A DNA stretch of 64,000 bases from Naegleria gruberi (Eukaryota): the NCBI GenBank assembly GCA_000004985.1, contig GG738846.1; one strand, written 5' to 3'. The position numbers and the translations under genes were made by a program. The notes under the pieces are model-generated. The model saw only the letters and a list, made by a program, of their open reading frames with translations, had not been told where the DNA came from and searched no databases. Every line of letters begins with the position of its first letter. Position 1 is the first letter of the stretch. This document shows positions 3,124-42,493 of this stretch, one piece after another.

Positions 3124-3381
3124 AATCAATTCAATTTCTCAATTAGATGATTCTTGAATATTAAGTCATCACACTTCTTATTGTTGACAAATCTCTTTGT
3201 GTGTTACTACAGCAACAATACGACTGGAAGATTCAAAAATTTGAAATGGTTAATTTCTTTTTTAAAAAATATCAACTAGAAAAAAAACATAACACTACTC
3301 GATATTTCCTCTCTCGATTTTTAATACACTACACATATTATTATTTTCAAAAAGTAGTAGTAAGGAATTAGAGAGTAAAGA

Positions 3382-19124: not shown

Positions 19125-19589
19125 TTCGTTTTATATTATTGTTTTTTATAAAATCCTTTCAAAATCCTAAAATCAATCCAACAGAATCCACAATAGAAAA
19201 CGCGCAATAGAACCTGAGAGGTTTCAAGTATTTTTTTTAAAACAAATATTTTTTTAAATTCAATATTTCATTGTTTACGTTAGAGATAGCGCAAATGTAG
19301 GTGTCGTAACAAAAATGGAGAGGTATCCATACCTAGATAACAGCTCATGTTTCCGTTTGTTTTTGATTGAGAAAATTAAATGGAAAATTATTAGAAGAGT
19401 AGTATTCAGAGTTGAATTTCAATCACTATAATGAATAGTTAATCCCTAGTATTATTTAATTTTACATAACAAAGTTAAATTGTTTAATTCTAACTTTTGA
19501 AGTGGTGACCTAAATACCAAGACCAAATTCACACTTTTAATCATGGACTAAAGCTTAGAAATTGTAAATTATCAATAAATTTAAAAAAA
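19125..19589. promoter_or_regulatory. Divergent promoter region between the MFS transporter (-) and DHODH (+)
   Basis: 465-bp AT-rich spacer between opposing start codons. Poly-A/T tracts lie immediately upstream of both ATGs. Confidence 0.35.
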
Positions 19590-20843
19590 ATGTCCTATCA
19601 AAGACAATTCAAACTCATGACCATGTTCGGAGCAACTTGTTTGCTCTCTGGTGGTGCAACATTTGTTTACAGGGGAATTAATGATGTTGATTCACCACTG
19701 TACTCTAAATTTGTGATGCCTCTCTTACACAAGATGGATCCCGAAGATGCACACAATTTATCAAAACTTGCCATAAAGTATGGAATTGGTCCAAAGGAAA
19801 AGAAATTAAAAGCAAATCAATATGGATTGGATCCACTCATTAGCTTACATACAAATTGTTTAGGATATCATTTTGAGAATCCTATTGGATTGGCAGCTGG
19901 ATTTGACAAGGATGCCGAATGTATGAAAGGAATTGAAAAGTTGGGGTTTGGTTTTATGGAAGTTGGAAGTATTTGTCCTCAACCACAACCTGGAAATCCA
20001 AAACCTAGAATTTTCAGATTGAATTCTAAAGTTTCCGATCCAGATGGAACAATTTTTGATACCATTCTCAATAGATGTGGATTCAATAGTAAAGGAATGG
20101 AAGTTTCGGATGAAAATTTGACAACCTATAGAAATTCATACCAGTCTCTTAATACATTCCCAATTGGTGTCAATTTGGGAAAGAACAAAACAAGTGCACC
20201 AGAAAGTATTGAGGATTATTTGATTGGTGTGAGAAAGTTGGCTAAACATGCAGATTTTTTGGTTATTAATGTCAGTTCACCAAATACCCAACATTTGAGA
20301 TCACTCCAGGAAAAGAGTTCCCTTGATACATTAATTGAGGAAGTTTCTACAGAATTGAAAAAACACAAAAACATTCCACTCCTTATCAAAATTGCACCAG
20401 ATTTGACCCTCGATCAACAACGTGACATTGCTTCATTGGCACTCAAACATTCCATTGGTGGTATCATCGTTTCCAATACAACTATTGAAAGACCATTTGT
20501 ATCGAGTGAACAAATTAATGCCATTCCAAATGGATCTGCTGGAGGTATGAGTGGTCGTCCACTCTTCAATCAATCCACTAAAGTTTTGAAGAATATGTAC
20601 AAATTAACAGAAGGTAAGGTGACACTCATTGGTGTTGGAGGTGTTTGGGATGGTTATGATGCATTACAAAAGATCCAAGCTGGTGCTTCACTAGTTCAAG
20701 TTTATACAGCTTTCACTGCTCAAGGTCCAGCTGTTGTTGGTAAAATCAAGAGAGAATTAGCTCAGTTACTTGCTGAAGGTGGATATGCCAGAGTTTCTGA
20801 TGCTGTTGGCTCTAAAGCCAAGTTTAGTAAATTGGAAGAATAA
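19590..20843 (+). CDS. DHODH: Dihydroorotate dehydrogenase (quinone), class 2, mitochondrial; 417 aa
   Basis: N-terminal targeting/TM segment (MSYQRQFKLMTMFGATCLLSGG) followed by DHOD motifs: GFDKDAE, GFGFMEVGSICPQPQPGNPKPRIFRL, NRCGFNSKG, INVSSPNT and SNTTIERP. Confidence 0.9.
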   Translation: MSYQRQFKLMTMFGATCLLSGGATFVYRGINDVDSPLYSKFVMPLLHKMDPEDAHNLSKLAIKYGIGPKEKKLKANQYGLDPLISLHTNCLGYHFENPIGLAAGFDKDAECMKGIEKLGFGFMEVGSICPQPQPGNPKPRIFRLNSKVSDPDGTIFDTILNRCGFNSKGMEVSDENLTTYRNSYQSLNTFPIGVNLGKNKTSAPESIEDYLIGVRKLAKHADFLVINVSSPNTQHLRSLQEKSSLDTLIEEVSTELKKHKNIPLLIKIAPDLTLDQQRDIASLALKHSIGGIIVSNTTIERPFVSSEQINAIPNGSAGGMSGRPLFNQSTKVLKNMYKLTEGKVTLIGVGGVWDGYDALQKIQAGASLVQVYTAFTAQGPAVVGKIKRELAQLLAEGGYARVSDAVGSKAKFSKLEE

Positions 20844-20944
20844 ATTATTTCATATTAATTTTTTCATATTTAAATATTAATTTCATTAATTTTTTCGATT
20901 CCAATATTATGCTCCATTCAAATTACTACTATTATAATTGTAAA

Positions 20945-21292
20945 TTATTCATTATTCTTTATTTTCTTGGTTTTGTTTTCATCATCGTCATCCTTCATAT
21001 CATCGTCGTCATCCTCTCCATTCAAACCTTCATCCTCATCTTCGTCCGATGATCGTTGTTGTTTCTTTTTTGTACTATTAGTAGTCGTAGTTGAATTAAT
21101 TACTTGTTGTTGTTTCTTTCCCAAATCAGTTAATAAATTAACATCCACATCCTTCATAGATTGCATTGATTGTGTCAAAAAGGTGAGATCTTGCTTTTTT
21201 GTTGTTGATGATGATTCAAAAGATTGTTTGGAAGCAATTTTTGGTTCCGAATTATTATTGGTCACTGTGAGGGTTGATGTAATTCTTGGCAT
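20945..21292 (-). CDS. Small acidic low-complexity protein (115 aa), hypothetical
   Basis: ORF MPRITSTLTVTNNNSEPKIASKQ...DEDEDEGLNGEDDDDDMKDDDDENKTKKIKNNE. Its composition is protein-like, whereas the antisense ORF 20967..21527 is poly-S/C/F and looks like an artefact. It converges on DHODH. Confidence 0.3.
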   Translation of the reverse strand: MPRITSTLTVTNNNSEPKIASKQSFESSSTTKKQDLTFLTQSMQSMKDVDVNLLTDLGKKQQQVINSTTTTNSTKKKQQRSSDEDEDEGLNGEDDDDDMKDDDDENKTKKIKNNE

Positions 21293-21547
21293 TTTGTTTA
21301 ATGTTGAAATTGTATTGTTTAAAAAACAATTAAATATATTATATTTTGATGATACTACAGTTTATTATCTAAATCAAGATAGTCAACTATGTATTAATTC
21401 ATCACAACACAACAATATTTGCTGTTCCTATTTAGTAAAGAGCAAAATTGTAAGCAAGCACAAAAATTTTCGTATTATTCAACAAACAAATTTCTGCTCT
21501 CCATTGTTTGCCTCGTTTTCTTCTTGATTGCCAACAAATCAAAAAAA

Positions 21548-23218
21548 ATGTCCAAACGAAACAGAGAAGAAATTACAAAAAGATATCTAGAAGATGCTGA
21601 TTATGATGACTCTGACGATGAAGACTATGAACCTTCCGATGAAGAATCACAACAAAAGATTAATCCAAATCAGAGTGGCAGAGAGAAAATTAAACAACTA
21701 CCTGAACATTTGAAAGGAAAGGCAAAGATTGAAGAATTGAATAAGATTCACTTTGACATTTTTACAAGTTTTGATCAAGATGATAATGCCAATAATAATA
21801 GTAATAATAATAATACAACTGATGATGATGAGTTGAGTCGTTGGGATAGAGAAAGATCAATCTTTTTATGTCAAAATATTTTACATGGAGATGAGGATGA
21901 AATGTTCAGCAGTGCTCGACTAGTTAGAACCTTTGCAACTCACATCTCTAAATTTGATAGTTTACAGGAACAAGTCATGAAGGAAGAAGATAATGATGAA
22001 AACAAGAAGAAGAAACAAGTTCTCCTCTCAATTCAATGCAGAAATAAGAGTAATATTGATGTTATACTCAAGTTCTTTATTGGTGGAGAGGCTTTAACAG
22101 AATTAGACACACAGGTTCCAAAAAAACAAATTGTGGATATACGTGGTTATGATGATATGATTGGAAAATTGAGAAGAAAATTACTAATTGATGCATATGA
22201 ACCAATGAATCAAAGCAGCAGCAGCTCAGCAAGTGGAAGTAACAGTGCTGGTGGTAGTAGTAGTTCCAACTCTTCAACCTATCTTAGAGACTATGGTTCG
22301 ATAAAAATTGAGGTTTATCAAGCCATTAGAGAAAAGTCAAAGATTGATTCTGATTATGAAGATGATTCTGATGAGGAAGAGGATGAAGAAAAGGACGATT
22401 TCATAGCAACTAGCTCATCAGAGGTTGAAAAACTGAGTCGTTACACACAAAACATGAAACAGCAAGAACGTTGTGGAATGCAAGTTTCATTTAAGGCTTC
22501 AAGAATTGAAAGACCAAAGAAAAAGGTAAAGAGGAAGGGAAAGAAAGCAAAGTTTGAAACCATTTTCGAAGAAGGACCTCTACTGTTCCAATCTGTTTAC
22601 AAGTACAGATCTTATTTGGGTTTCTTGTGTGAACTTCAAGAATATAATATTGACTTGGGAAAGACCAAAAACATGGCCAGAGGAAGATCATTAGATAATG
22701 AAAGTTCTTCCTCTGATGACGAATCTTCTTCCTCTGATGATGATGATGAAAATGGAATCAAGACAGAAGAGCAAGATGATGGCGGTTTTATTGATATTAC
22801 AGATGATGTTGAAGAACCACCTAAAATAATTCCAACAGTTTCTCTTGATAGTGATGACGAAGAGGAAACTGATGTCAAACCAACAGCTGCTGAACTCGAG
22901 AAACATGCCAAACAATCCTCAATCTGTCAAGCTTCAAGCAGTACATCCAGCTCAGCAATTCAACAGAGTAGTAGTGCCTACTCATTCAAAGAAACCATCC
23001 AAGATGTGGAGAAAAAGAATGTAGATAATTTGATGCGATTCATCAAACTCAATGATGAAACATTATACAATGAAGTTAAGGATATTTTCAAGAAATTTCA
23101 GGTTTCTGGAAGCAAATTGTTGAGTAGGACTCTTGATTACCCTAAAATGGGGGTGAGTGTTAAATACCAAATTAAGATTTTACAAATTGTAGATAAGATT
23201 ATTGATAATTCCATGTAA
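21548..23218 (+). CDS. Acidic Ser/Asp/Glu-rich protein (about 556 aa), unknown function
   Basis: ATG at 21548 (MSKRNREEITKRYLEDADYDDSDDEDYEPSDEE) inside the 21419..23218 ORF. There are several poly-acidic tracts and a poly-N tract. The C-terminal region is partly duplicated downstream (see repeat 23966..24042). Confidence 0.45.
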   Translation: MSKRNREEITKRYLEDADYDDSDDEDYEPSDEESQQKINPNQSGREKIKQLPEHLKGKAKIEELNKIHFDIFTSFDQDDNANNNSNNNNTTDDDELSRWDRERSIFLCQNILHGDEDEMFSSARLVRTFATHISKFDSLQEQVMKEEDNDENKKKKQVLLSIQCRNKSNIDVILKFFIGGEALTELDTQVPKKQIVDIRGYDDMIGKLRRKLLIDAYEPMNQSSSSSASGSNSAGGSSSSNSSTYLRDYGSIKIEVYQAIREKSKIDSDYEDDSDEEEDEEKDDFIATSSSEVEKLSRYTQNMKQQERCGMQVSFKASRIERPKKKVKRKGKKAKFETIFEEGPLLFQSVYKYRSYLGFLCELQEYNIDLGKTKNMARGRSLDNESSSSDDESSSSDDDDENGIKTEEQDDGGFIDITDDVEEPPKIIPTVSLDSDDEEETDVKPTAAELEKHAKQSSICQASSSTSSSAIQQSSSAYSFKETIQDVEKKNVDNLMRFIKLNDETLYNEVKDIFKKFQVSGSKLLSRTLDYPKMGVSVKYQIKILQIVDKIIDNSM

Positions 23219-24102: not shown

Positions 24103-26305
24103 TTATTCATCATGATCTGATGATTCATTCTCAACATCCTCCTCCATCATATCCATAATCACCTCAGCATCAACCTTTTCAGGATGATCAGTGAATGCCA
24201 ATTGTTTCTCAGCTAACTTTCTATAGACACCATTTTCATTGCGGAGTAAATCATCATGTTTACCCTTTTCCATCAAGTTACCCTTCACCAAAACACAAAT
24301 CATATCAGAATTCTTAATTGTTGACAATCTGTGAGCAATACAAATGGTTGTTCTACCGTGCATTAAGGTATCGAGAGCTGCCTGAACCAAAGCTTCTGAT
24401 TCTGTATCTAATGCAGAAGTAGCTTCGTCCAGGAGTAAAAGTTTAGGATTTTGAATTAAGGCTCTAGCAATGGCAATACGTTGTTTTTGACCGCCCGACA
24501 TTGAGACACCCTTTTCACCTAATAATGTATCATATTGTTCTGGAAGATCCATAATGAAATTATGACAATTGGCAAGTTTGGCAGCATTCATAATTTGTTC
24601 ATCTGTGACATTTTCCAAACCAACTGCATAGGCAATATTATCCTTAATGGTTGCAGCAAACAATACTGGTTCTTGAGTGACAATACCTAAATTTCTGTGA
24701 AGCCACATTGGATCAATTTCAGTAATATCAATTCCATCAATTTCAATACTTCCCTTATTTGGATTATAGAACTTTTCCAATAAACCAACAATGGTCGACT
24801 TTCCTGATCCAGATGGACCCACCAAAGCAACCGATTGACCAGCCTTAATTTCCAATGAGAAATTCTTCAATACTGTAATATTAGGTCTGGCAGGATAAAT
24901 AAAATCAACATTTCTAATGGAAATATTTCCGACCAAATTATCAATTTTCTTACCACCCTTAAATGGAATTTCAGGCACTCTCTTAATTACCTTCAACAAG
25001 TAAGTTTCACTCAATCTTGCTTTTGTAAAGTCTGGGAAACTTGCAGTTGTTTGAATCATACCCATAACTGACATGAGCATTAAACCAAAAACTTTAAAGT
25101 AATCTCCCAAACTAAGCTCATTATCAATGATCAAATTACCTCCGTACCAGAAACCAAGAGCGATAGTTCCCCACAATACGAAACCAACTAGATTTCAATA
25201 GTTCAAGTTATGAAAAAATGAATAAAACAAATAACCTACCAATCATAAATGCCAATCCAATAAAGAATGCCTTAAAAAATCCATAAAAGCTAACAATTTT
25301 CAATTGTGACTTGTATCTCAATTGTTCCTTAATTTCACCAGCCATTGATCTGACAGTTTTAATGGCACTGATAATTTCACTTGAAATGGCATAACCCTTC
25401 TCATTGGCATCATTGGTCTTTCTTGTGAATAATCTAATAATGACATCCAAAATAATAATAGTAAGGAAAATCAATGGTGTGGTTGAAATAATGACAAGTG
25501 ACATTTTCCATGAAGAAGTAAATGACATGATCAATCCACCAACTGTTTGAGCAGTATTCTGAATAATTGTTGATAATTTCAATGTATAGGCATCTTGAAT
25601 CTTGGCCACGTCATCACTCAACACACTTGTCAAGGCACCAACTTTCTTAATATCAAAGAATGCCATCTCCTGAGCAGTCAATGAATTAAAATATAATTCT
25701 TTCAATTTTTGTCCAACTCTTTCATTTGCCCAATTGAAAAAGAAATGTAACATGAAATTGGCAACAAAAGCACTTGCTGCAACAATTGTTAATTTCCAAC
25801 CAACTGTATTGACACCTTGTCTGATGGCTTCTGTGGTTACATTGGTACTTGTTAAAATATTAAGTAAATCACCAACAATAAATTGGATAAATAAGGAAAT
25901 TAATCCAGCACTATATTTGGTAATTCAAAATATTATTTAAAAATATTCAATGAATAATTAATTATATTAGTAATGATAGTAATATTAATAAAAAACATAC
26001 CCAACTGCACCAATAGTTCCAAAAAACATTAAAATTAAATTAAACCATCCAAATTTGGATAATAAATACAAGTGATCCTTTGCTCCAATGGATGGTTCTC
26101 TTGGATCATCGATTTCTTCATTCTTTTCAGATAATTCTTTCATTTGTGCTTGATATCTACGTTGTTTGATTCTTTTGAATGGATTTCTTGACAAGGAATT
26201 ATTCGAAACTCCTGCTTGACTTTCTGGAGGTGGTGCAGCACTTGTTGTAGTTGGCGTGCTTCCTTCCTCAACAACAGTTCCTGGCACAATTGATTCTGAT
26301 ATCAT
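24103..26305 (-). CDS. abcB: ABC transporter, B-family half-transporter (TMD-NBD). Exons 26001..26305, 25240..25910 and 24103..25187; introns 25911..26000 and 25188..25239; 686 aa.
   Basis: Walker A GPSGSGKST, the ABC signature LSGGQKQRIAIARAL, Walker B LLLLDEATSALD and the H-loop CIAHRL are all present. The upstream exon has 6 TM helices. Splice junctions (GTATGT...TATAG and GTAGGT...TCTAG) are phase-consistent, and the CDS is 2061 nt, divisible by 3. Confidence 0.85.
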
Positions 26306-26777
26306 CTTCTTATTTCGAATATATATTTACAATAATTCTAAACTCTATTAGAAACTCGATAAAAACTTGTGTATTTGTGTTTGTTTTTTTTCAAATTGTC
26401 CTCAACAGAATCAATTATGAATCACATATTTAATCGCACTCACTCATGCTCACTCATGTGTTGCTTAAACCACCAACAATCCGAATTTGGAGAGGAACCA
26501 ATTATCGGTAGTGGATTTTGAATCAAAAGCGGGCACTTTACCAATCCCCTCACTTTTGTCCACACCACTATCGTCATCATATCATGTTCAACCAAATGCG
26601 CATGCATATTCTTTCAATTGTTTTTTTGCATTGCTCGTTCTATTGGATTAGAGGGATTATAGAACAAATTCTGTTATAAACCCTTGCGGGTTGATTCTCC
26701 CGCCTCTGAAGTTGGAATTGTAGATTTTCCACAACAAACGTGTTTGAAAATTTTGGCGGTACTCGGACTTGAAAAAA
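26306..26777. promoter_or_regulatory. Divergent (head-to-head) promoter region shared by the ABCB transporter (-) and the Zn2Cys6 factor (+), with a GC-elevated core
   Basis: 472-bp spacer between the two start codons. It contains direct repeats cactcactcatgctcactcatg, and GC-rich elements (aaacccttgcgggttgattctcccgcc, ttggcggtactcgg) that are atypical for the AT-rich intergenic background. Confidence 0.4.
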
Positions 26778-28646
26778 ATGACTCAACGAGAGGATGAATT
26801 AAACATGTCCATTCATAATGGAGAAGATGAAGAAGAGAATGTTCTTCGAAAAACTTCAGAAGGAACAGATGCAAGTTCCGAAACAATGTTTCATCCGATT
26901 TCCTGTAATAAATGTAGAACGAATCATAAAAAAGTAGGTTGACTTTGTGTTGTTTGTTGTTATTAGAAATCCATTAGTGTGATAAAAAGTTACCAATGTG
27001 CTCGTATTGTGCCAGTAGAGGAATTGCTTGTGAAGTAAGTTTTTTTTAACTTTACAATAATTGTAAACCTTTTTAAAGTATGATAATCCTAGAAAGAGAG
27101 GAAAAGGCTCGGATCAGTATCCTCCAGAACCAAAAAAGAGAAAGATTAAAATTCAACCAGAATGGAAGGAAATTGGACTTTTGGATCCAAATTTACTTGT
27201 GGAATTTTATTATGACTACCTGTCGGATGGTTTAGCAGTTTTACCAAAACACAAATTTACTTATTTTGTAACGAATTGTTTGAATCAATTTATGAGAGTT
27301 TCTACGGAACCTCTTACATTGGAAACTAATGATTTAATCAAGTCAGAGGAGGAAATGAGAGGATTATATATAATGTATTCAGCCCTTCTGACTGTGTATT
27401 ATCAATTTCATGCCAAAACGGAATTGGCTACCCTCACTGCAAGTATATGTGAAAAGGAAATTACAAAACATTCCATAGAATGTTTTGAAAACTTGTATTT
27501 TGTTGCAGGTTGTCATACTATAGCTCTGTTTTTTCTCATTGAGGGTAGTCAAGAGAAAAAGGGAAAGTTTTTTGGACACTACGTAACTTATTTCTTCAAA
27601 ATGAAAGACAATATAGATGATATGGATGCTTTTGAGAAGAATTTTTATCATTCCTATTTGCTAATTAAGCACGTATGTGAACACGAACCTCCAAAAGATT
27701 TCAAGTCATTTATTAGTGGATTGCCACAGTTCTTCCAAGTACTGTCGGGAAGAAATATTGAGGATGTTGTAATACCAGAAGTTTGGGAATATTTGAAGAG
27801 TGCAGAACCTAATTCAGCAAATTACATGATTTTCAAACAATTATTGGAAAATGTCTTTCTTTTTGCGGATCAACATAAGAAACATATGATGACAAGTAAC
27901 TTGAGCAATGATTCAATTTCAAAGAATTATTTGGAATTTGAAAGTTTGATTAGGAATATTATTCATGATGGATTCAGATTGCTATTCTATGGAAAAATTC
28001 CTGAATTGGCTGGTGAACTCATTGAAGAAGTTGCTTTGAGAATTACTCTCCAAACTGAAAATGATTTATTCAAGTATGTTTTTGATTTTGATTTTGATTT
28101 TTACTAATATTTTCTTTTATTTGTTAAAATATATATAGACTTGCACTTCCAGCTGTAGATATTGGAATAAGAAAAGCATGTGAATTCCACTTGAAAGTTT
28201 CACAGGAAGTTGAGATGGGTCTACGTGACAGGAGATCTAGAATCAAAACCTCCTCAGGAAAGACAATCTCATTCGATAATTATTCACTTTTGGAAAAGGA
28301 TTTAAAGGCCATTAAATTATTGGCAAGTAGATTCAAATCAATTTACAATATTGATAAGGAACTCATTGCTAAATGTGAAGAATTTCTGAAAAGACAGGAG
28401 GAAAAGCAACAAACACAACCTTCCATAACCATGTTACCTCCTATTGATACTAATTTATTGAGACCTCCAGTACATATTGAATGGAATCATCATAATCAAG
28501 ATTCATTCTTGTCATCAATGATGGATTTTGTCAAACTAATGACACAAAATAACAATGGAAATATGTCATCACCCTCACCATCCAACTCTTCATTTGGTAG
28601 TGCAAGCAGCAGCGCTCCTTATGATCCTTGGAGTTTATTCCAATAA
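26778..28646 (+). CDS. Zn(II)2Cys6 binuclear-cluster (GAL4-type) transcription factor. Exons 26778..26933, 26978..27034, 27079..28073 and 28139..28646; introns of 44, 44 and 65 nt; 571 aa.
   Basis: The spliced N-terminus ...ISCNKCRTNHKK|CDKKLPMCSYCASRGIACE|YDNPRKRGKGSDQYPPEPKKRKIK gives C-x2-C-x6-C-x5-C-x2-C-x6-C followed by a basic linker. Donors are GTAGGT, GTAAGT and GTATGT, and every acceptor is AG. The CDS is 1716 nt, divisible by 3. Confidence 0.7.
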
Positions 28647-28717: not shown

Positions 28718-30514
28718 TTATAAAGCAGGCTGTTTATTCATTTCTGCAGTGGATGATTCTCCCTTTGAATTACTATTAAACAGTCTGTTAACAGCTCTTG
28801 TCAACTTGTCTCCATAAACAATCTTGAAAGTTTCTTCCTTAAATGTCATATAGGTAGAGAATGACAATACAGCAAATATACAAGAATCTAGGAAAATATT
28901 CCTCACAACCCCATAAAACACTGAAATCACATCGTATCCAAAAGCATAGGTCAGTACACACAAAAATACCACCAACCAATTAGCAAGGAACAATACAGAG
29001 ACAATCAAAATAAACTTGGTAAATCTATACTCCAAAACACCTCCATTATTCCTCCTCAATGTCAAGAATATTTTGACTCCATAAAAAGAAAATCCAATCT
29101 CAAAGGTGAATAAATAAATCAATGCAAATATCGCCAACACAACCCACGCATAACCATAATACGAAACCGAAACGAAAACTATCAGTGCAATAATTAGGGC
29201 AATAATCAATGCCACATAAAATACTGCAAGAATAATCTTGTTAATTTTGGAGAGCTTTCTATTACTTGCATCTTTCCTCTGTGATAGATCAATAATGTGT
29301 GACCACAAAATAACCATTGAACTATATCCACACAAAACACAAATTGCACTAATAGCTCTAAAAACTCCTCCAAAATAGGCAAGGAAAAAATCGTGAACTC
29401 CTGAAAAATTGAATAAAAACCTGAAAAAGTTTTCTAAAAATCCAGCAAACGCAGAAATGCAAAACCAAATAATTGGATGACTGACAATATCAAACAAGTG
29501 TCTGGTAAACCACAAAATAGTTTTGAATCGATTAGTTTCTTCAATATTGGTCATCATTTTCTTTTTAAATGAAACAATTCGCTCAGCAATTCTTGGAATG
29601 AAAACAAATAATATCAAAAAGAAGAACAAGCCAACATAGAGCAATGCAAAAAAGATTGCTGCATAGAAATAAGCCATTGGTGTCTGATATCGATGATAAA
29701 AATCATTACAAACAAATCCAAATGAAGAATATTCAGTCTGATAATCACACCAACATAGATAGGGAATATTCATTCCTATTTGTAAATTGAGAGAATTAGA
29801 TTGATTGAAAAATTCACTCTGTAATCCATATCTTTGAATGATGGGTTTGAAATAAAATTCAAAAAATGTTGGAAGTGAAACATTCTTCAAGTATAAACTT
29901 CTAGAAATGGTCGAATCTAAACTATATAAATAATTATAAAAAGTATTCTTAAAATAGTCTGATATTAAAAATGTATGATCAAATAATGGCACATTCACCA
30001 AATTATTCGAATTTCCATTACAATGTGATTGAATCACATGTTGATATAAACTAATTGATTGATTAAAAATGTTAAATATTGAACAAGTTCCATAATTTGA
30101 TTCTAAAAATTCAATTGTATCTGTTGAATTACAATATAAACAATAATTTACAATTCTCGATAATTCTATCAATGTTGACTTGTTTGTAAAATCCCAAAAA
30201 TTAAATTCACAAAGTTTTTCACAAGCAATAACAGCATGATTGGAAGAAGGTGAACAGAAATTTTCAATGGGTGTGTCAAAGGTGAATAATTTGGTAAAAT
30301 AATATTCATTGACTGGATTTAAATCGAGACATTCATGGAGTGGATAGTTTAATTTATCTAATAATTGATATTCGAAAGTTTCGTTAGTATTTTGGGGTTG
30401 CAATAAATGATTGCATAGAGATGATGAAGCTGTCATCATGATGACTAGTAACATCACATATTGCGCTCCGACATGGATTCTTGAAATATTTCTGCATATT
30501 GTGAAAGCTGTCAT
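28718..30514 (-). CDS. Seven-TM receptor-like protein with an N-terminal Cys-rich glycosylated ectodomain of about 270 aa; 598 aa
   Basis: Signal-like MLLVIMMTASSSLC. The ectodomain has many Cys residues and N-x-S/T sites. Seven hydrophobic helices follow, from AYFYAAIFFALLYVGLFFFLILFVFI to IFLDSCIFAVLSFSTYMTF, and then a cytoplasmic tail. The family (GPR107/108, TMEM145 or frizzled-like) was not resolved. Confidence 0.5.
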   Translation of the reverse strand: MTAFTICRNISRIHVGAQYVMLLVIMMTASSSLCNHLLQPQNTNETFEYQLLDKLNYPLHECLDLNPVNEYYFTKLFTFDTPIENFCSPSSNHAVIACEKLCEFNFWDFTNKSTLIELSRIVNYCLYCNSTDTIEFLESNYGTCSIFNIFNQSISLYQHVIQSHCNGNSNNLVNVPLFDHTFLISDYFKNTFYNYLYSLDSTISRSLYLKNVSLPTFFEFYFKPIIQRYGLQSEFFNQSNSLNLQIGMNIPYLCWCDYQTEYSSFGFVCNDFYHRYQTPMAYFYAAIFFALLYVGLFFFLILFVFIPRIAERIVSFKKKMMTNIEETNRFKTILWFTRHLFDIVSHPIIWFCISAFAGFLENFFRFLFNFSGVHDFFLAYFGGVFRAISAICVLCGYSSMVILWSHIIDLSQRKDASNRKLSKINKIILAVFYVALIIALIIALIVFVSVSYYGYAWVVLAIFALIYLFTFEIGFSFYGVKIFLTLRRNNGGVLEYRFTKFILIVSVLFLANWLVVFLCVLTYAFGYDVISVFYGVVRNIFLDSCIFAVLSFSTYMTFKEETFKIVYGDKLTRAVNRLFNSNSKGESSTAEMNKQPAL

Positions 30515-30620: not shown

Positions 30621-33427
30621 TTATTCATCATGTTGATGCAAACTTATTTGATTTTCCATTTTGGCCTTCTTAACTTGAGATCTTTGTCTGACAGTAGATT
30701 CCGATGAAGATTCTTCAAATCTAACATTGGATGATGAATTACTGCTACTAGTAGTATTAGTGGAGGTTAATGTTGCTGGTGGAGGAATCATTCTTTCAAC
30801 ATTGGCCATGGCAAGGTAAGGGAAGATGTGGACTTGAGCCATTTGGAGTGCAAATGCAATTGTTGGATTGGTTTCTGGATCTTCAATCAATTCTTGAACC
30901 TTTGTCTTGAGCCAAGTTTGGAAGAGGAAGACAACAACCACCAAAATAAGAATGAGGTAAATTGGATTTCTGATAATAGAATAAATTTCATCCCAACCTA
31001 AAACTACAAGTAAAATATAAACCCAATATGGAATATTGGCCTTATTTTGTTGAGCAATCAATTGAGCTCTTTGCACATCTCCGTAAATATTGTCAGTTCT
31101 CATAATATAATTCTCGTAGGCTCTAATACAGATATTTTCACTCATGATAAGGTTTTCTTCAAACAAGGACATGATATCCTTCTTTTCAACTTCATTTCCT
31201 TCATCAGTGTTAGTGGAGGACTCCTCAACCTTGACATGCTTCAAGACCTTTCGAATATCATCAGAAGCTGGGAATGCAAAATCACCAATACCTCCTGATT
31301 CATCTAACTTTGGTAAACGAAGGTGAATATCATCAAATTCACGATGATCTAATCTACAAAGGAAGAAAATATCAAGAATCTTGATGGCTTCTTGTCTAGC
31401 TTTGGTATAATCTTCCTTAATTTGCTCCATATTCTTCCAAGCTCTGAGAATGTTATTTTCATCTCTCTTGAATAAATCTTCAAATCTACTGGTGAGTGTA
31501 AGTGAGATTACGTTGGACATTTCTCTAACCTTGGTAACAATTTCATTTCTGGCAGCAACTCTAATTCTTGGTACAAATTTGGAACAATCAGCAATATCCA
31601 AGTCCTTGAGAGATTTGGCGAGATGCTCCTTTTCTTCGGTTACAACTTTGGTCAAGTAATTGGAAAGAGTAACCCAGAGTTTTTCAGTTGGTTTCGTAAC
31701 CCATTGATTAATATCTTCTCTAATGTGTTTCTTCATTTCATCAATTTGAATCTTGACAATCACTTCAACTTGTTTGTGTCTGTATTCTTCAATAATATTC
31801 TTAATTTCCTCTTCCAAAGATTCCAAGGATGGGTTAAAGTTGAATTGTTCATCAGAGTTCAATCCTGGATAGATGGATTCCTCAGCCAAACCAGTAAAGA
31901 AATTGGTGATATAGTCATGAGTTTGCTTTGTAGTATTGGTAAAATCATCAACAATTTCATTATCGTCAATCTTCTTTTGTACGTTGGAGAACATAAACTT
32001 TTTGAAAGCATCCAAAGATTGTTGCTTGATGAGGGCAATTTGAGAAGTGAATAATATGGCAACTTCAGAGACCATTCTTTCCTTAAATTCTTCACACTTC
32101 TTGTGAACAACATCTGGAACGTATAATTTAGTTTGATCCATAAAGTGAGCAAGGGTCTTTTCAATAATGTCGTGAGATTTGCTTCCAAACTTGGAAACCA
32201 ATTGCTTCTTCTTGAGAATTTCGCTCCATTCAATAATTTGTTCTTCAAAAGGTCTGTACAAGGCAGAGGAAATTTCATCACAACGATACATGGCCAACAT
32301 TTCTTTTTGAGTTGGAATATCCAAATCCTTGTTAGCATAAATGACTTCCCAAATATCTTTAGCATACATTTCAAAATCGTCTATTGGCACTGACTTTTTA
32401 TACTTTGGATTGAAAACATAGCCCTTAGCGTTTGGATTGACAAATCTATCTCTCATGAGCTCAATTTCCTTATTGAAAAGGTCTTCTTGCAAGAGCTTGT
32501 GTGGAAGTGAAGTAAATTCAAAATCGAAAAAGTCTGTCACCTTAGAATCCTCAAATTGTGTTGGCTTCATGATATTACCCCAGAGCTTTTCAACATCCTT
32601 GATCATTTGATCACGTAAAGCCTCTAGTGGTGTCATTTCTCTAATATGATCTCTAATAACAAAAAGTAAAAGTGTCTTGGAAGATCTGTAAAATTAAATA
32701 ATTAACATCATATTAAAATAAGCACTTGAAAAAGATCAAAAACATACTTGTCCTTAGTAAATAACTGTAAATTCAATTCAAAAACAATACGAAGTAATGC
32801 AAGGTTAGCTGCATTATATCTACCAATATCTTGCATCCACATATTTACAAGTAAAACTTCCGAAACTGCCAAAGCAAACAATGAAATCTTTCTTTCAAAA
32901 GCCATATTATCATCTCCAGAACCTCTTTCCTTTGAGTCAGTTCCTTCCAAATCCATCAAGAGAATATCTTTATCCAATGTTTTGTTAGCCTTTGCCATAC
33001 AAACTCCTAGTGTAACTTGATAACGACCAGTACTTGCATCCATAGTTGGAAAACCAGCTCCAAAAAGTCTATTCAACAAGGTTGATTTACCACTACTTTG
33101 AGGTCCAAAAACAGAGAGAATATTATAATTATCTCCCTTTCCTCTCATATTGGTTTGACCAACAAATCTATCCAAAGTCTCACTATTTTTAAATTATCAT
33201 GTATATGAATCAATATTATTATCATCATCATATATTCCGAACAATTTCCAATATCAAAACAACAATAACATATATTTACAAACAATCCCACCAATAAAAA
33301 CTCACCTAAATTTTCCTTCACCATCTACCAATTGAACAAAATTAGCAGGGCGATTATCCGATGATGCATTCCCATCAACCTCTCTAGCTGTTGCTTCTGA
33401 TTGTTCGTTGTTATTGGAGAAGGTCAT
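30621..33427 (-). CDS. sey1: Sey1/RHD3 (root hair defective 3) ER membrane-fusion GTPase. Exons 33306..33427, 32748..33182 and 30621..32685; introns 33183..33305 and 32686..32747; 873 aa.
   Basis: GTPase G1 motif GPQSSGKSTLLN inside LDRFVGQTN...ILSVFGPQSSGKSTLLNRLFGAGF, then DLEGTD, the junction FTKDK|SSKTLLLFVIRDH (matching RHD3 TTLMFVIRD) and two C-terminal TM helices (IYLILILVVVVFLF). Donors are GTGAGT and GTATGT. The CDS is 2622 nt, divisible by 3. Confidence 0.85.
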
Positions 33428-33715
33428 TTTTTGCTGTTATGAAATTAAAATCAATTTTCCTTCTTGTTTTTATTGTTGTGCAAAAATGACGTCACAACAA
33501 GAAAGGTGAGAAAATTTGTTTTTAAATTTAAAGAGAGTGTATGGATTTTGATTAACGTGAAGCACATTTATACATGTCGTCATCTATTCGCCATATTGAA
33601 GAGATAGATTGATTTATTATTGCATATTACCATACCGGTTGAGAGTCAATTGAATAAGGTAGCAGCTGGTGCATTTCCCGCCACAAGTTATTATTCCACA
33701 TTAAATTTGAAAAAA
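33428..33715. promoter_or_regulatory. Divergent promoter region between sey1 (-) and the ORC5-like gene (+)
   Basis: 288-bp spacer between opposing start codons. Confidence 0.35.
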
Positions 33716-35614
33716 ATGAACGATAATCAAAATGATGAAAAGGTTGTTGAGGAGGTGTTGAAAACAAAGGTTATTTCTCGTAGAAAAAGGAGAACAAAAA
33801 TTCTGATTCAACCCATTGAAGAAGAAGAAGAAGTAAAAACAACAACAATTGTACCACCACCTGTCGTTGTTGCTCGTAATGTTGAACAATCATCCTCCGA
33901 AGTTAAAGAGGACATTGATCAAAAGGAAAAACAGGAAATAGTGGTTCATCATCACAACAAAAGAAGGAGTACTGGTAGTAATAATGATATGGAATATGAC
34001 GATTCTAGTTGCATTGATATTTCAATAGTGAGTGATGGAATGGATAATAGTCTAGTTGAGGATGAAGTAATGGAAGATAAGACAGATGGTGTCTATTCGG
34101 AGGAAAATAATTCTGGTGGTGAAGAGGATGAAGATGAAATGAATAAGTACATAGATGAAGACGAAGAGGAAGATTCTGATGGCGAAGAAAATCATGAGGA
34201 CAAGCCAATTCAACATGAGGAGGAAGATGATGAAACTGCTGATAGACGGAGATCTTCCTATCCTTTTGTTGAATTATTGTTGGAGAATGAATTAGTCACA
34301 CCACCAATGATTCTTCCATATATTGAGAATAACTTTCATCCAATCTATCATTTGTGGAAACATGGATTTATTCACTTGAATATGAATAGTAATATAATAG
34401 ATTATCATATCAATTATTTGATGAAGTATGTCAAAAAAGTTGATGATTATGAGTATTCTATTATCGAAATTGATGTGAGAGAGTATAGTACCTTGTCTTC
34501 AGTTTTACACTCTCTATTAATCAAAATGTTCGACCACACAAAATTCAGAAAGGTACCTTCCAAGGTTTACTTCTTCTCTAAATTGAGTGAATTGACTGAC
34601 AAGTTTTGCATTCTTCTGAAAGGTATTAACGATTTTGAGTTATTATCAATATTTATGAATTTATTTAGGAATAGTTCTAATAGAATTTGTGTATTTTATA
34701 TTGATAACAAACATTTATCGTTTGATAATGTAAATATCAACTCTAATAATATTATCAATATATATAGTAACATAATTTATAATACAGTAAATTGTAATGA
34801 TATGGATGTAATCAAGTCCTATCTTGTGAATAATATTGTAGAGTTTAGTGAGTATAGGGAGATTTTTGAGGAATTTATAGAACTCTTCTTGAATGTTCAC
34901 ATGAGTATGGAAAAGAATATTATAATATTTATTAAAATAATTCCTAGATTATTCAAACATTGTTTGACTCAAGTCGACACGACGAATGAGATTACCTGTA
35001 TGAGTCTTTTCAAATTGGTGAGCAATATTTCATTCCATCAATTGATAGAAATGTTCGATGTGTACAATTTGAAGGAGCTTGCTGCTAGATCCCTAAATAA
35101 TCCATCTGACAAGAAGAATAATTTGGAAGAATTTTTGGAGAGTGAAAGTATTGGTTCAACCAGTGAATTAATTGAAAAGCACATTATTATTGCAGCCTAT
35201 GTTGCTAGCAAAAATTCGAAACAGTGGGATACACTATTGGATAATTCATTGAAACAAAAGAAAAAGAGGAAAAAATTAGACGAAACATCAAGTGTAAAGA
35301 TTAGCACCAAGACCAATAAGAAACAATTATTTGACATACCAAGATTGTTGTACATTTTCAGAAATATCATTAGCAATTCCCAACATGTAGATTCTCTAAC
35401 TGGTCCAATTGACTATATTCCACACATTTCAAGTCTACTGAGTAAGAATGTCCTCGAATGGAAACGAAAAAAGAATGAAATTTTACAATCCAATATGAAT
35501 AGTGGAGAGCACATGATGACACTTTCTTCCAAGTATTCATTTCCAATTGTGAAAGAATTGGCAACTGAATTGGGAATTAGCACACTCTTTGAACGTTATG
35601 TTGAAGAGGAATAA
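33716..35614 (+). CDS. Origin recognition complex subunit 5-like protein (tentative); 632 aa
   Basis: C-terminal block KHIIIAAYVASKNSKQWDTLL...KKKRKKLDE...KKQLFDIPRLLYIFRNIISNS resembles the ORC5 motif [20 protein letters not shown]...LDRLLAIL. The N-terminus is acidic, and no clear P-loop was seen. Confidence 0.3.
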   Translation: MNDNQNDEKVVEEVLKTKVISRRKRRTKILIQPIEEEEEVKTTTIVPPPVVVARNVEQSSSEVKEDIDQKEKQEIVVHHHNKRRSTGSNNDMEYDDSSCIDISIVSDGMDNSLVEDEVMEDKTDGVYSEENNSGGEEDEDEMNKYIDEDEEEDSDGEENHEDKPIQHEEEDDETADRRRSSYPFVELLLENELVTPPMILPYIENNFHPIYHLWKHGFIHLNMNSNIIDYHINYLMKYVKKVDDYEYSIIEIDVREYSTLSSVLHSLLIKMFDHTKFRKVPSKVYFFSKLSELTDKFCILLKGINDFELLSIFMNLFRNSSNRICVFYIDNKHLSFDNVNINSNNIINIYSNIIYNTVNCNDMDVIKSYLVNNIVEFSEYREIFEEFIELFLNVHMSMEKNIIIFIKIIPRLFKHCLTQVDTTNEITCMSLFKLVSNISFHQLIEMFDVYNLKELAARSLNNPSDKKNNLEEFLESESIGSTSELIEKHIIIAAYVASKNSKQWDTLLDNSLKQKKKRKKLDETSSVKISTKTNKKQLFDIPRLLYIFRNIISNSQHVDSLTGPIDYIPHISSLLSKNVLEWKRKKNEILQSNMNSGEHMMTLSSKYSFPIVKELATELGISTLFERYVEEE

Positions 35615-35758
35615 TAAATATCTATTTCAGTGCTATTACAACCCTTTGTCTAGAGAATACCACATAGTCAATCTCAATACCAAATATTGATTTGCAAAGA
35701 GTTGTGAAATTCACATTCATCCCGCCAAATTTACAATGTCAAAAAAACAATCAAAAAA

Positions 35759-41866: not shown

Positions 41867-42493
41867 TTATTCATCATTAGAATCATCATGATTGACTTGT
41901 TCCTTATTAGTGTTAACATTCTGTATCTTTTTCTTTTTCAACAATCTATTTGACTTTTCTGGTATTGGAATGAAATTAACATTTTCCTTGAAATGCTTTG
42001 GATCCAATTTTCTCTGTAATTCTATAGAAGGTGTCATGACATGTTCTCCATATTCTCTCCTTCTCTTTTTACTTTTTTCAGTATTAGTATCAAATGAAAT
42101 TACTTCACCATCCGATGATGTAAATCTCTTCTCCTCACATTGTTTAAATTTCATCTTGGAAAGTTTCTTCTGTTTCTTTTTACTGACAGTCTCGGGATCG
42201 ATAAAGAAATCATCTTGTTCCTCCTCTTGTTTTTTATCATTAATTTCATTCAGGAAACTATCCTTTGAATCGATAGAATTTTTGAAAATGTCATCTTCCT
42301 CCTGTGCCATATCATTGTTATATAAATGTTTGTATCGTAAATACATGGATGGTTTTTCTGCATCACATAAATCTCTCTCTTTAAATCGTGAATATCCATA
42401 TTGATTACGTTCTTGTCCGATTTTTGAAAGAACATTTACTTTATGTTGAAGAAGTTGTTTTTCCGTGTGTTGAATATTTGGTCGTCTACCCAT
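41867..42493 (-). CDS. Lys/Glu-rich, probably nuclear or nucleolar protein; 208 aa
   Basis: MGRRPNIQHTEKQLLQHKV..., with KKKQKKLSK and KSKKRRREYGEH basic patches. The antisense ORF 41892..42404 is a composition artefact. Confidence 0.4.
   Translation of the reverse strand: MGRRPNIQHTEKQLLQHKVNVLSKIGQERNQYGYSRFKERDLCDAEKPSMYLRYKHLYNNDMAQEEDDIFKNSIDSKDSFLNEINDKKQEEEQDDFFIDPETVSKKKQKKLSKMKFKQCEEKRFTSSDGEVISFDTNTEKSKKRRREYGEHVMTPSIELQRKLDPKHFKENVNFIPIPEKSNRLLKKKKIQNVNTNKEQVNHDDSNDE

What the first reader, a model, noticed from the sequence alone, without database searches (positions are those of the whole stretch)
26778..28646. GAL4-type Zn2Cys6 binuclear-cluster transcription factor in a non-fungal-looking genome, built from four exons with 44-65-nt introns
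The six-cysteine motif C-x2-C-x6-C-x5-C-x2-C-x6-C only appears after two 44-nt introns are removed; the second cysteine triad is split from the first by an intron. The Zn2Cys6 domain is classically regarded as fungal. The surrounding genes (stefin, cathepsin B, Piezo, poly-Asn tracts) point to an amoebozoan-like host, so this is an uncommon lineage context. It shares a GC-elevated divergent promoter with an ABCB transporter. That is the Pdr1/Pdr3-ABC regulator-target logic known from yeast, placed here in a head-to-head arrangement.
Basis: partly seen in the sequence, partly recalled or inferred. Interest (0 to 1): 0.6.

Follow-up and report, generated by a model that had tools for sequence, protein, structure and literature searches.

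The report
Naegleria zinc-cluster transcription factor gene
This is a real, correctly spliced gene for a "fungal-type" zinc-cluster DNA-binding protein, but the genome is the amoeboflagellate Naegleria gruberi, where dozens of such genes were already reported, and there is little evidence that it controls the neighbouring drug-pump gene.

Summary
Window 26778-28646 (+) is a four-exon gene with GT..AG introns of 44, 44 and 65 nt. Its 571-aa product is 100% identical to an annotated Naegleria gruberi "predicted protein" and passes Pfam Zn_clus (E 4e-8).

Three details need correcting:
- The spacing is C-x2-C-x6-C-x6-C-x2-C-x6-C.
- Intron 1 lies between Cys2 and Cys3, not between the two triads.
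- The host is a heterolobosean (Discoba), not an amoebozoan.

The "uncommon lineage" point is already published: Scazzocchio 2014 counted 71 Zn2Cys6 proteins in N. gruberi.

The head-to-head neighbour is a P-glycoprotein-like ABCB half-transporter. The pairing is absent at its N. fowleri orthologue. It recurs, in tandem orientation, at one of seven other ABCB loci, so regulator-target coupling remains speculative. Interest is low to moderate.

The parts
26778..28646 (+). Whole Zn2Cys6 transcription-factor gene, from start codon through stop codon; four exons, 571 aa
   Evidence: Spliced. The product is 100% identical to the annotated N. gruberi protein P0001.
26778..26933 (+). Exon 1 (residues 1-52). 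It encodes an acidic, low-confidence N-terminus plus Cys43 and Cys46.
   Evidence: AF2 pLDDT is below 50 for residues 1-33.
26934..26977 (+). Intron 1, 44 nt, GTAGGT...AG, phase 0, between Lys52 and Cys53 (inside the Zn-cluster coding region)
   Evidence: Two distant paralogues carry an intron 4 nt upstream of this position: L004 (N. lovaniensis) and L005 (metagenome).
26978..27034 (+). Exon 2 (residues 53-71), carrying Cys53, Cys60, Cys63 and Cys70
26904..27031 (+). Zn2Cys6 binuclear-cluster DNA-binding domain, residues 43-70 (interrupted by intron 1): CNKCRTNHKKCDKKLPMCSYCASRGIAC
   Evidence: Pfam PF00172 E 4.1e-8. The sequence aligns to the Hap1, Cep3, Ppr1, Gal4, Lac9 and Put3 clusters. 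AF2 pLDDT is 87-92.
27035..27078 (+). Intron 2, 44 nt, GTAAGT...AG, phase 0, after Glu71
27079..28073 (+). Exon 3 (residues 72-402 plus two bases of codon 403)
27088..27147 (+). Basic linker, putative bipartite nuclear localisation signal (RKRGKGSDQYPPEPKKRKIK, residues 75-94)
   Evidence: Read directly from the sequence. The region is disordered in the AF2 model. The NLS function is inferred from the classical KR-x10-12-KKRK pattern.
27163..28430 (+). Helical domain of about 400 residues (residues ~100-500, interrupted by intron 3), conserved in Naegleria and Willaertia relatives, with a Cep3/middle-homology-domain-like fold
28074..28138 (+). Intron 3, 65 nt, GTATGT...TACTAAT...AG, phase 2 in codon 403
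28139..28646 (+). Exon 4 (last base of codon 403, residues 404-571, stop codon)
28431..28643 (+). Low-complexity C-terminal tail with an amphipathic helix (residues 525-542) and a terminal acidic/aromatic motif (..YDPWSLFQ); putative activation region
   Evidence: AF2 gives low confidence except for helix 525-542. A Y-x-DP-type C-terminal motif recurs in paralogues (alignment A3). The function is inferred.
26306..26777 (.). Divergent intergenic region of 472 bp, shared with the ABCB gene. It has GC 0.354, rising to 0.45 in the 100-nt window at 26506-26605, and CpG observed/expected 0.97 against 0.35 for the window.
26687..26702 (.). CGG-N10-CCG inverted repeat (part of GCGGG-N8-CCCGC), about 76 bp upstream of the factor's ATG; a speculative zinc-cluster-type site
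   Evidence: It is the only CGG-N10-CCG in the 64-kb window. It is not statistically compelling, because the spacer is generally CpG-rich: 7 CGG/CCG triplets against a mean of 1.6 per 472 bp.
24103..26305 (-). Neighbouring ABCB (P-glycoprotein-like) half-transporter gene, TMD-NBD order, 686 aa. Exons 26305-26001, 25910-25240 and 25187-24103; introns of 90 and 52 nt.
   Evidence: Pfam ABC_membrane 9.6e-51 and ABC_tran 1.2e-33. The splice sites were refined. The best PDB matches are ABCB1/P-gp at E 2e-244. The closest relative is N. fowleri FDP41_013276 at 62% identity.

Best explanation
Window 26778-28646 is an intact, spliced Naegleria gruberi gene. It encodes a nuclear, sequence-specific DNA-binding transcription factor of the heterolobosean Zn2Cys6 family.

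Shown:
- the gene model
- a canonical six-cysteine binuclear cluster, with the conserved Arg after Cys2, the conserved Pro before Cys4 and a Lys-Lys pair before Cys3
- a helical domain of about 400 residues shared with many Naegleria and Willaertia paralogues, whose predicted fold is closest to the Cep3 middle homology domain of fungal Zn2Cys6 factors

Inferred:
- The cluster binds two zinc ions and reads short DNA half-sites.
- The half-site may not be the fungal CGG. The residue equivalent to Gal4 Lys18, which contacts the bases, is a family-wide histidine (CRxxH[KR]xCD).
- The basic linker is a bipartite nuclear localisation signal.
- The helical domain regulates activity and may provide dimerisation, as in Cep3, because no coiled coil follows the linker.
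- The acidic/aromatic C-terminal tail recruits the transcription machinery.

The targets are unknown. The adjacent ABCB pump is a candidate, but only a weak one.

The gene belongs to an N. gruberi-enriched sub-branch. Its closest relatives are N. gruberi paralogues at 26-34% identity, and no one-to-one orthologue was seen in N. fowleri or N. lovaniensis.
For: - Gene model and identity to the annotated protein.
- Zn_clus above the Pfam threshold. All six Cys, the Arg and the Pro align to Hap1 (alignment shown), and the Gal4, Ppr1, Put3 and Cep3 clusters are also matched.
- Family: 203 hits at E<=1e-3 and 38 at E<=1e-10, many covering residues ~106-500.
- Every named relative looked up is Naegleria gruberi, N. 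fowleri, N. lovaniensis or Willaertia magna.
- The His signature is nearly invariant.
- AF2 with 30 family sequences gives mean pLDDT 80.4 and pTM 0.70. The Zn cluster scores 87-92 and the helical domain mostly 83-98.
- Cep3 is the only solved middle-homology-domain structure (PMC10141177).
- Paralogues in other species also carry an intron inside the cluster-coding region, which points to long residence in this lineage.
Against: - I had no transcript, protein or DNA-binding data.
- No Pfam Fungal_trans hit was found for this protein at E<=1 or for 30 family members at E<=0.01.
- A profile of the helical domain finds no PDB sequence, including Cep3.
- hhalign against one Fungal_trans-containing protein gives nothing. 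The link to the fungal middle homology domain therefore rests on a predicted structure only, and all-helical folds can converge.
- No coiled-coil dimerisation element is predicted, so the binding mode is unknown.
- The His for Lys change at the base-contacting position leaves the target sequence open.
Confidence: 0.8

Rival explanations
1. One reading: the factor and the divergently transcribed ABCB pump form a local regulator-target pair. The factor would bind the shared 472-bp spacer, for example the CGG-N10-CCG at 26687-26702, and switch on the P-glycoprotein-like pump in response to xenobiotics. This would resemble the Pdr1/Pdr3 logic in yeast.
For: - The two genes are head-to-head with a 472-bp spacer.
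- The neighbour is MDR-type ABCB, closest to P-glycoprotein.
- The spacer holds the only CGG-N10-CCG in the window and a CGG-N4-CGG.
- In N. lovaniensis, a same-family Zn2Cys6 gene lies about 180-280 bp upstream of a different ABCB half-transporter. The called gene ends at 7721, the tblastn match ends at 7823, and the ABC gene starts at 8001 in L007.
- In fungi, Zn2Cys6 regulators often sit beside the transporters or clusters they control (own knowledge).
Against: - The orthogroup of this ABCB gene (N. fowleri FDP41_013276 and ENA contig P0165; tree) has no Zn_clus gene within 10 kb in L001, or on the 6.7-kb contig L003. tblastn with the factor finds nothing there.
- Five further ABCB loci were examined. 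L002, L006, L008 and L009 have no such neighbour. Only L007 does, which makes one of seven loci in all.
- At L007 the orientation is tandem, the factor belongs to another subfamily and the ABC gene to another clade. It is not a conserved cassette.
- With about 71 Zn_clus genes among roughly 15,700 genes, the chance of at least one immediate-neighbour hit in seven loci is roughly 6% (my rough estimate). That is not significant.
- Factor paralogue loci L004 and L005 have no ABC neighbour.
- The CGG/CCG enrichment follows from the spacer being CpG-rich, like seven other patches in the window.
- His replaces the CGG-contacting Lys, so CGG sites may be irrelevant.
Confidence: 0.15
2. The protein is not a gene-specific transcription factor. 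Like its best structural match, Cep3, it would be a structural chromatin or centromere DNA-binding subunit, or another non-transcriptional zinc-cluster protein.
For: Cep3, a kinetochore protein, is the top hit in both structure searches.
Against: - Cep3 is simply the only solved middle-homology-domain structure (PMC10141177). It stands in for the whole Gal4-like family.
- This gene is one of dozens of divergent paralogues in N. gruberi (PMC5611559).
- No one-to-one orthologue was detected in sister species. That is the pattern of a fast-evolving regulator family, not of an essential single-copy kinetochore component.
- Point centromeres with CBF3 are restricted to budding yeasts (own knowledge).
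Confidence: 0.03
3. The gene is fungal contamination or a very recent horizontal acquisition from a fungus. In that case the 'non-fungal' context would be an artefact.
For: The domain is overwhelmingly fungal in databases (Pfam name; PMC5415576).
Against: - The protein and its contig are assigned to N. gruberi (about 1 Mb scaffold).
- The flanking genes have their closest relatives in Naegleria and Willaertia.
- Exon GC equals the window average (0.336).
- The gene has three short introns, like the two in the adjacent ABCB gene.
- Every relative whose source I looked up is heterolobosean, and the family shares a lineage-specific His signature.
- Paralogues in N. lovaniensis and in an environmental relative carry an intron at almost the same place.
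Confidence: 0.02

Closest known systems
Zn2Cys6 proteins of Naegleria gruberi and other Heterolobosea (71 recorded by Scazzocchio 2014, PMC5611559; UniProt 'Zn(2)-C6 fungal-type domain-containing protein', 'GAL4 domain-containing protein')
   Same: - Same organism and same Pfam domain.
- The protein itself is already in NCBI/UniProt with PF00172.
- It shares the family signature CxxCRxxH[KR]xCDxxLPxC and, with a large subset, the C-terminal domain of about 400 residues.
   Different: - No member has been characterised experimentally, as far as I could find.
- This gene sits in an N. gruberi-enriched sub-branch, with closest paralogues at 26-34% identity and no clear orthologue in N. fowleri or N. 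lovaniensis.
[quoted passage not shown] The predicted fold found here suggests the contrary for this subfamily.
Fungal Zn2Cys6 plus middle-homology-domain factors ('CeGAL' family: Gal4, Cep3, Pdr1/Pdr3, Hap1, Put3 and others)
   Same: - An N-terminal six-Cys cluster with canonical spacing and the conserved Arg, Pro and basic residues.
- The same domain order: cluster, then a basic linker, then a large all-helical domain, then a C-terminal acidic/hydrophobic tail.
- The predicted helical domain superposes best on the Cep3 middle homology domain.
   Different: - No sequence-level match to Pfam Fungal_trans or Fungal_trans_2.
- His replaces the base-contacting Lys (Gal4 Lys18).
- No coiled-coil dimerisation segment is predicted after the linker.
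- The host is a discoban protist, not a fungus.
Yeast Pdr1/Pdr3 pleiotropic drug resistance network
   Same: A Zn2Cys6 factor and a multidrug-type ABC exporter are both present.
   Different: - Pdr1/Pdr3 mainly drive ABCG-type (Pdr5, Snq2) and ABCC-type (Yor1) full-size pumps through PDRE sites, and they are not adjacent to them (own knowledge).
- Here the pump is an ABCB half-transporter.
- The only link is adjacency, and it is not conserved.
P-glycoprotein/ABCB1-type exporters, including half-size forms such as Cyanidioschyzon CmABCB1
   Same: - The neighbouring gene has TMD-NBD order.
- It has ABC_membrane and ABC_tran domains, with Walker A GPSGSGKST, signature MSGGQKQR and Walker B LLLLDEATSALD.
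- The best PDB matches are ABCB1 at 2e-244. CmABCB1 also matches, at about 1e-100.
   Different: - It is a half-transporter with an N-terminal extension of about 90 residues.
- It is one of at least five N. gruberi paralogues.
- Its substrate is unknown.

Membership tests
Zn2Cys6 binuclear cluster (Pfam PF00172 Zn_clus) | Six cysteines spaced C-x2-C-x6-C-x5-12-C-x2-C-x6-8-C | tested here: met
   C43-x2-C46-x6-C53-x6-C60-x2-C63-x6-C70 in the spliced product.
Zn2Cys6 binuclear cluster (Pfam PF00172 Zn_clus) | Score above the curated Pfam gathering threshold | tested here: met
   33.6 bits against a threshold of 21, E 4.1e-8, profile positions 2-38 of 39.
Zn2Cys6 binuclear cluster (Pfam PF00172 Zn_clus) | Conserved non-Cys residues: Arg after Cys2, basic residues before Cys3, Pro two residues before Cys4 | tested here: met
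   R47, K51, K52 and P58 are present and align with Hap1 (alignment shown). The Gal4 Lys18 equivalent is His50, a family-wide substitution.
Zn2Cys6 binuclear cluster (Pfam PF00172 Zn_clus) | Binds two Zn(II) ions and specific DNA | not testable with these tools
   This needs metal analysis and a DNA-binding assay with the recombinant domain.
Fungal Zn2Cys6-MHD ('CeGAL') factors | Sequence match to the middle homology domain (Pfam PF04082 Fungal_trans or PF11951 Fungal_trans_2) | tested here: not met
   No hit for the protein at E<=1. No hit for any of 30 family members at E<=0.01. hhalign of the domain profile against a Fungal_trans-containing protein gives probability 0.1%.
Fungal Zn2Cys6-MHD ('CeGAL') factors | All-helical middle homology domain fold, as in Cep3, placed C-terminal to the cluster | tested here: met
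Fungal Zn2Cys6-MHD ('CeGAL') factors | Coiled-coil dimerisation element after the linker (typical, not universal) | tested here: not met
   AF2 shows no helix in residues 67-98, and the region has low confidence.
Fungal Zn2Cys6-MHD ('CeGAL') factors | Fungal host (the family is defined as fungal-specific) | tested here: not met
   The host is Naegleria gruberi. All named relatives are Heterolobosea.
Pdr1/Pdr3-like regulator-pump pair | The regulator controls transcription of the ABC pump through sites in its promoter | not testable with these tools
   Only adjacency and one CGG-N10-CCG are seen. No expression or binding data are available.
Pdr1/Pdr3-like regulator-pump pair | Linkage of factor and pump conserved across related genomes, as a proxy for functional coupling | tested here: not met
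   The linkage is absent at the orthologous loci L001 and L003, and at L002, L006, L008 and L009. It is present once, in tandem, at the non-orthologous L007.
ABCB (MDR/TAP) transporters (neighbouring gene) | Type IV exporter TMD followed by an NBD with Walker A, signature and Walker B motifs; closest relatives are ABCB | tested here: met
   Pfam ABC_membrane and ABC_tran. The motifs are visible in the translated protein. The best PDB hits are ABCB1, ABCB4 and ABCB11. Sources name the homologues 'subfamily B (MDR/TAP)'.

The most novel reading that the evidence does not exclude
The fungal 'CeGAL' supra-domain is a Zn2Cys6 cluster joined to a Cep3/Gal4-type middle homology domain, and a 2023 paper describes it as fungal-specific. 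On this reading it is not fungal-specific. Naegleria and Willaertia would carry a large, intron-containing, long-resident family with the same two-domain architecture, too diverged for Pfam Fungal_trans to detect, and with a His in place of the CGG-reading Lys. That would mean the whole regulator type, not just the small zinc finger, either dates back to an early eukaryote or moved between kingdoms long ago. As a lesser add-on, some members may have been recruited next to ABCB efflux pumps (this window and N. lovaniensis L007).
Probability: 0.45. Interest if true: 0.55.

Novelty: new member of a known kind. Interest (0 to 1): 0.3.

Why it matters
As stated, the finding matters little. Zn2Cys6 proteins in Naegleria gruberi have been in Pfam and UniProt since the genome was published, and a 2014 review discussed them (71 copies). 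This gene is one uncharacterised copy.

The wider family is still of interest. Nobody has shown what these "fungal" regulators do in a bacterivorous amoeboflagellate that is about as far from fungi as a eukaryote can be.

The fold-level match of the C-terminal domain to the Cep3 middle homology domain, if it reflects homology, would bear on an open question: did the dominant fungal regulator family arise in fungi, or is it much older or horizontally spread?

A regulator linked to a P-glycoprotein-like pump would also interest those working on drug tolerance in Naegleria, which includes the pathogen N. fowleri. The present evidence for that link is weak.

Tried and rejected
- Word-indexed homologue search with the full protein returned only the protein itself. 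The same search with the C-terminal-domain profile returned just six proteins. The exhaustive representative search was what revealed the family.
- The first AF2 run, on a six-sequence alignment, was unusable (pLDDT 45.9). The 30-sequence alignment gave a usable model.
- Foldseek against AFDB50 would have been the best test of the fungal middle-homology-domain link. The library was not available.
- Sequence-level links of the helical domain all failed: the profile against PDB sequences found only noise; Pfam scans of 30 + 29 + 20 relatives gave no Fungal_trans except in one unrelated hit, P0100; and hhalign against P0100 was negative.
- Looking up N. gruberi loci by exact protein failed for P0001 and P0175. 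I therefore could not inspect the neighbourhoods of N. gruberi paralogues, including whether AbcB1 and two factor paralogues on a 305,921-bp scaffold are adjacent.
- Literature searches for Naegleria with Zn2Cys6 or Zn_clus found nothing. A broader search was swamped by fungal papers. The relevant review turned up through 'binuclear cluster'. De Mendoza et al. 2013 (PNAS) is not held.
- I considered the CGG-N10-CCG in the spacer as a binding site and downgraded it. It is unique at that spacing, but expected given the local CpG richness, and the His substitution questions CGG reading.
- I considered co-duplication of a factor-pump cassette and rejected it. The L007 pair involves a different ABCB clade and a different factor subfamily, and the recent duplicate of that ABCB (L009) has no factor.
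Full report
**1. What is in the sequence**

- The ATG is at 26778 and the TAA ends at 28646.
- The three GT..AG introns are 26934-26977 (44 nt), 27035-27078 (44 nt) and 28074-28138 (65 nt, with a TACTAAT branch-like element).
- The CDS is 1716 nt and encodes 571 aa.
- The four exons lie in frames 0, 2, 1 and 0. None of the intron lengths is a multiple of three. Read-through of intron 1 stops after two codons.

The spliced protein is 100% identical over its full length to a database entry, 'predicted protein [Naegleria gruberi]', which carries PF00172 and lies on a scaffold of about 1 Mb. An independent annotation therefore uses the same junctions. The paralogue consensus (CRxxHKxCDKxLPxC...RGxxCxYxxP) runs smoothly across both junctions.

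Pfam Zn_clus scores 33.6 bits (threshold 21), E 4.1e-8. A PDB sequence search matches the clusters of Hap1, Cep3, Ppr1, Gal4, Lac9 and Put3, and the printed Hap1 alignment pairs all six cysteines.

- The spacing is C-x2-C-x6-C-x6-C-x2-C-x6-C.
- Exon 1 holds only Cys43 and Cys46, and exon 2 holds the other four. Intron 1 therefore cuts between Cys2 and Cys3.
- Only intron 1 needs to be removed to create the motif.

**2. Whose genome it is**

The window is Naegleria gruberi (Heterolobosea, Discoba), not an amoebozoan. Other genes in the window fit a free-living protist:
- VPS13, a MYND-finger protein, an MFS transporter, an ORC5 homologue, a REJ/EGF protein and Piezo
- DHODH and Sey1/RHD3
- papain-type, stefin and poly-Asn signatures

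Fungal contamination is excluded by the scaffold assignment, by composition (exon GC 0.336, equal to the window), by the short introns, and by the relatives: every one whose source I looked up is heterolobosean.

**3. Already known**

[quoted passage not shown] He remarked that they look different from fungal ones and discussed ancient origin against horizontal transfer. Shelest 2017 (PMC5415576) repeats that the family has a patchy non-fungal distribution. UniProt names Naegleria relatives 'Zn(2)-C6 fungal-type domain-containing protein', and one is called 'GAL4 domain-containing protein'. The lineage surprise in the finding is therefore published, and this gene is one uncharacterised member.

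**4. The family and the rest of the protein**

An exhaustive HMMER search of 1.84 billion representatives found 203 proteins at E<=1e-3 and 38 at E<=1e-10. Many match residues ~106-500 rather than only the zinc cluster.

Cluster look-ups show what these are:
- N. gruberi paralogues: D2VMH5, D2VW00, D2VW32, D2VVW2, D2VVW5, D2VQN7, D2VYM0 and D2W0I2. Several lie on the same two scaffolds, which suggests local duplication.
- N. fowleri, N. lovaniensis and Willaertia magna proteins.
- Unnamed environmental contigs.

The nearest relatives are N. gruberi paralogues at 26-34% identity. I saw no one-to-one orthologue in the other species.

The family shares the signature CxxCRxxH[KR]xCDxxLPxC. The His is nearly invariant. 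It occupies the position of Gal4 Lys18, which contacts the CGG bases in the Gal4-DNA structure (own knowledge; the alignment logic comes). The recognised half-site may therefore differ from the fungal CGG.

None of 30 family members hits Pfam Fungal_trans or any other family over the C-terminal domain. A profile of that domain finds nothing among PDB sequences.

**5. Structure**

AF2 on a six-sequence alignment failed (pLDDT 45.9). With 30 family sequences it gave pLDDT 80.4 and pTM 0.70. The model shows:
- a confident zinc cluster (pLDDT 87-92)
- a disordered basic linker (residues ~72-98, RKRG...KKRK, which looks like a bipartite NLS)
- a confident all-helical domain with one beta-hairpin (residues ~100-495, pLDDT mostly 83-98)
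- a low-confidence tail with one amphipathic helix (525-542) and a terminal YDPWSLFQ that resembles the C-termini of paralogues

According to Mayer et al. 2023 (PMC10141177), Cep3 is the only solved structure of the fungal middle homology domain (Fungal_trans), and the Zn2C6-MHD pair is considered fungal-specific. This Naegleria subfamily therefore appears to have the fungal two-domain layout at fold level.

The caveats are real:
- It is a predicted structure of a helical protein.
- The rmsd is large.
- There is no sequence-level support.
- The AFDB library, which could have shown whether fungal factors are the nearest models, was unavailable.

I put about 0.45-0.6 on true homology.

**6. The neighbour and the regulator-target idea**

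The minus-strand gene starting at 26305 was re-spliced as exons 26305-26001, 25910-25240 and 25187-24103, with introns of 90 and 52 nt. It encodes 686 aa.
- It has ABC_membrane and ABC_tran domains.
- P-glycoprotein/ABCB1 is by far its best PDB match (2e-244).
- Sources label its homologues 'subfamily B (MDR/TAP)'.

The 'ABCB' call is right: it is a half-size P-gp-like exporter.

The spacer is 472 bp with GC 0.354. That barely exceeds the window mean (0.336) but is clearly above other intergenic stretches (0.18-0.32). Its CpG observed/expected ratio is 0.97 against 0.35 for the window. Eight such CpG-rich patches occur in the window, most of them near mapped ORF starts or in inter-ORF gaps. 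One lies in the MFS/DHODH divergent spacer. This looks like a general property of the genome, not something special to this pair.

The spacer contains the window's only CGG-N10-CCG (26687-26702) and a CGG-N4-CGG. In a CpG-rich 472 bp with seven CGG/CCG triplets this is unremarkable.

Conservation test:
- An NJ tree groups the window's ABCB with N. fowleri FDP41_013276 and two environmental sequences.
- Two of these three have loci I could read, L001 and L003. Neither has a Zn_clus gene, and neither gives any tblastn match to the factor or to other window genes.
- Four more heterolobosean ABCB loci (L002, L006, L008, L009) have none either.
- L007 (N. lovaniensis C9374_007408) does have a full-length member of the same factor family immediately upstream, on the same strand. 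It belongs to another factor subfamily and another ABCB clade, and the recent duplicate of that ABCB (L009) lacks it.
- Two factor paralogue loci (L004, L005) have no ABC neighbour.

One hit in seven loci has a chance probability of roughly 6%. I computed this from about 71 Zn_clus genes among about 15,700 genes and two neighbours per locus. The gene count is from memory of the genome paper. The result is suggestive but not significant. I give the regulator-target model about 0.15.

**7. Most likely mechanism**

The protein is most likely a nuclear Zn2Cys6 transcription factor. The steps that are shown are the gene model, the domain, the family and the predicted fold. The remaining steps are inferred:
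- zinc-dependent binding to short half-sites of unknown sequence
- regulation, and perhaps dimerisation, through the middle-homology-like domain
- activation through the C-terminal tail

The targets are unknown.

**8. Verdict**

The core claim is not novel. The modest new element is the Cep3-like fold of a heterolobosean-wide C-terminal domain. Interest is 0.3.

Noticed in passing
window 3151-3800, 18901-19500, 20701-21350, 26251-27150, 33201-33950, 35601-36150, 42051-42550, 46201-46950: The window as a whole is strongly CpG-depleted (observed/expected 0.35). Eight patches of 500-900 bp have CpG o/e of about 0.8-1.2. Most lie near mapped ORF starts or in inter-ORF gaps, including the MFS/DHODH and the factor/ABCB divergent spacers. 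They look like CpG islands in a protist genome.
   Followed up: partly
L007 6276-7823 (+) and 8001-10224 (+), N. lovaniensis PYSW02000029.1: A full-length member of the same Zn2Cys6 family lies immediately upstream, in tandem, of another ABCB half-transporter (C9374_007408). P0001 aligns to it over residues 5-526, E 1.7e-13. This is a second factor/ABCB adjacency in the genus, involving a different factor subfamily and a different ABCB clade.
   Followed up: partly
window 24103-26305 (-): The ABCB gene of this window had no near-identical entry among the top hits of the 5.8-billion-protein search; the best hit was 63% identical. Four other N. gruberi ABCB paralogues and the neighbouring factor were present. 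The gene may be missing or differently modelled in the reference annotation.
   Followed up: no
L004 about 8116-8248 and L005 about 8020-8065: Distant paralogues (N. lovaniensis P0159 and a JGI metagenome contig) also have an intron inside the Zn-cluster coding region, between Cys2 and Cys3. It is in phase 2 of the codon before the Lys-Cys, 4 nt upstream of the window gene's phase-0 intron. This could be intron sliding or independent gain.
   Followed up: partly
protein P0152 (N. gruberi D2VMH5, 716 aa): The closest paralogue is annotated 'TB2_DP1_HVA22 domain-containing protein', and it carries both a Zn cluster and a TB2/DP1/HVA22 Pfam hit. This is probably two neighbouring genes fused in the gene model.
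   Followed up: no
proteins P0113, P0137, P0143, P0149 (representative library, source unknown): Proteins that combine a septin domain with two tandem Zn2Cys6 clusters turned up among the weak zinc-cluster hits. This is an odd architecture, or the gene calls are fused.
   Followed up: no
window 28718-30514 (-) and 21419-23218 (+): Two long single-exon ORFs (598 and 599 aa) flanking the factor/ABCB pair have no Pfam match and no tblastn match in the three related loci tested at that point (L001-L003).
   Followed up: no
A Piezo channel has Pfam anchor and cap domains. A papain-type CGSCW motif, a stefin QVVAG motif and a poly-Asn run are also present.
   Followed up: partly
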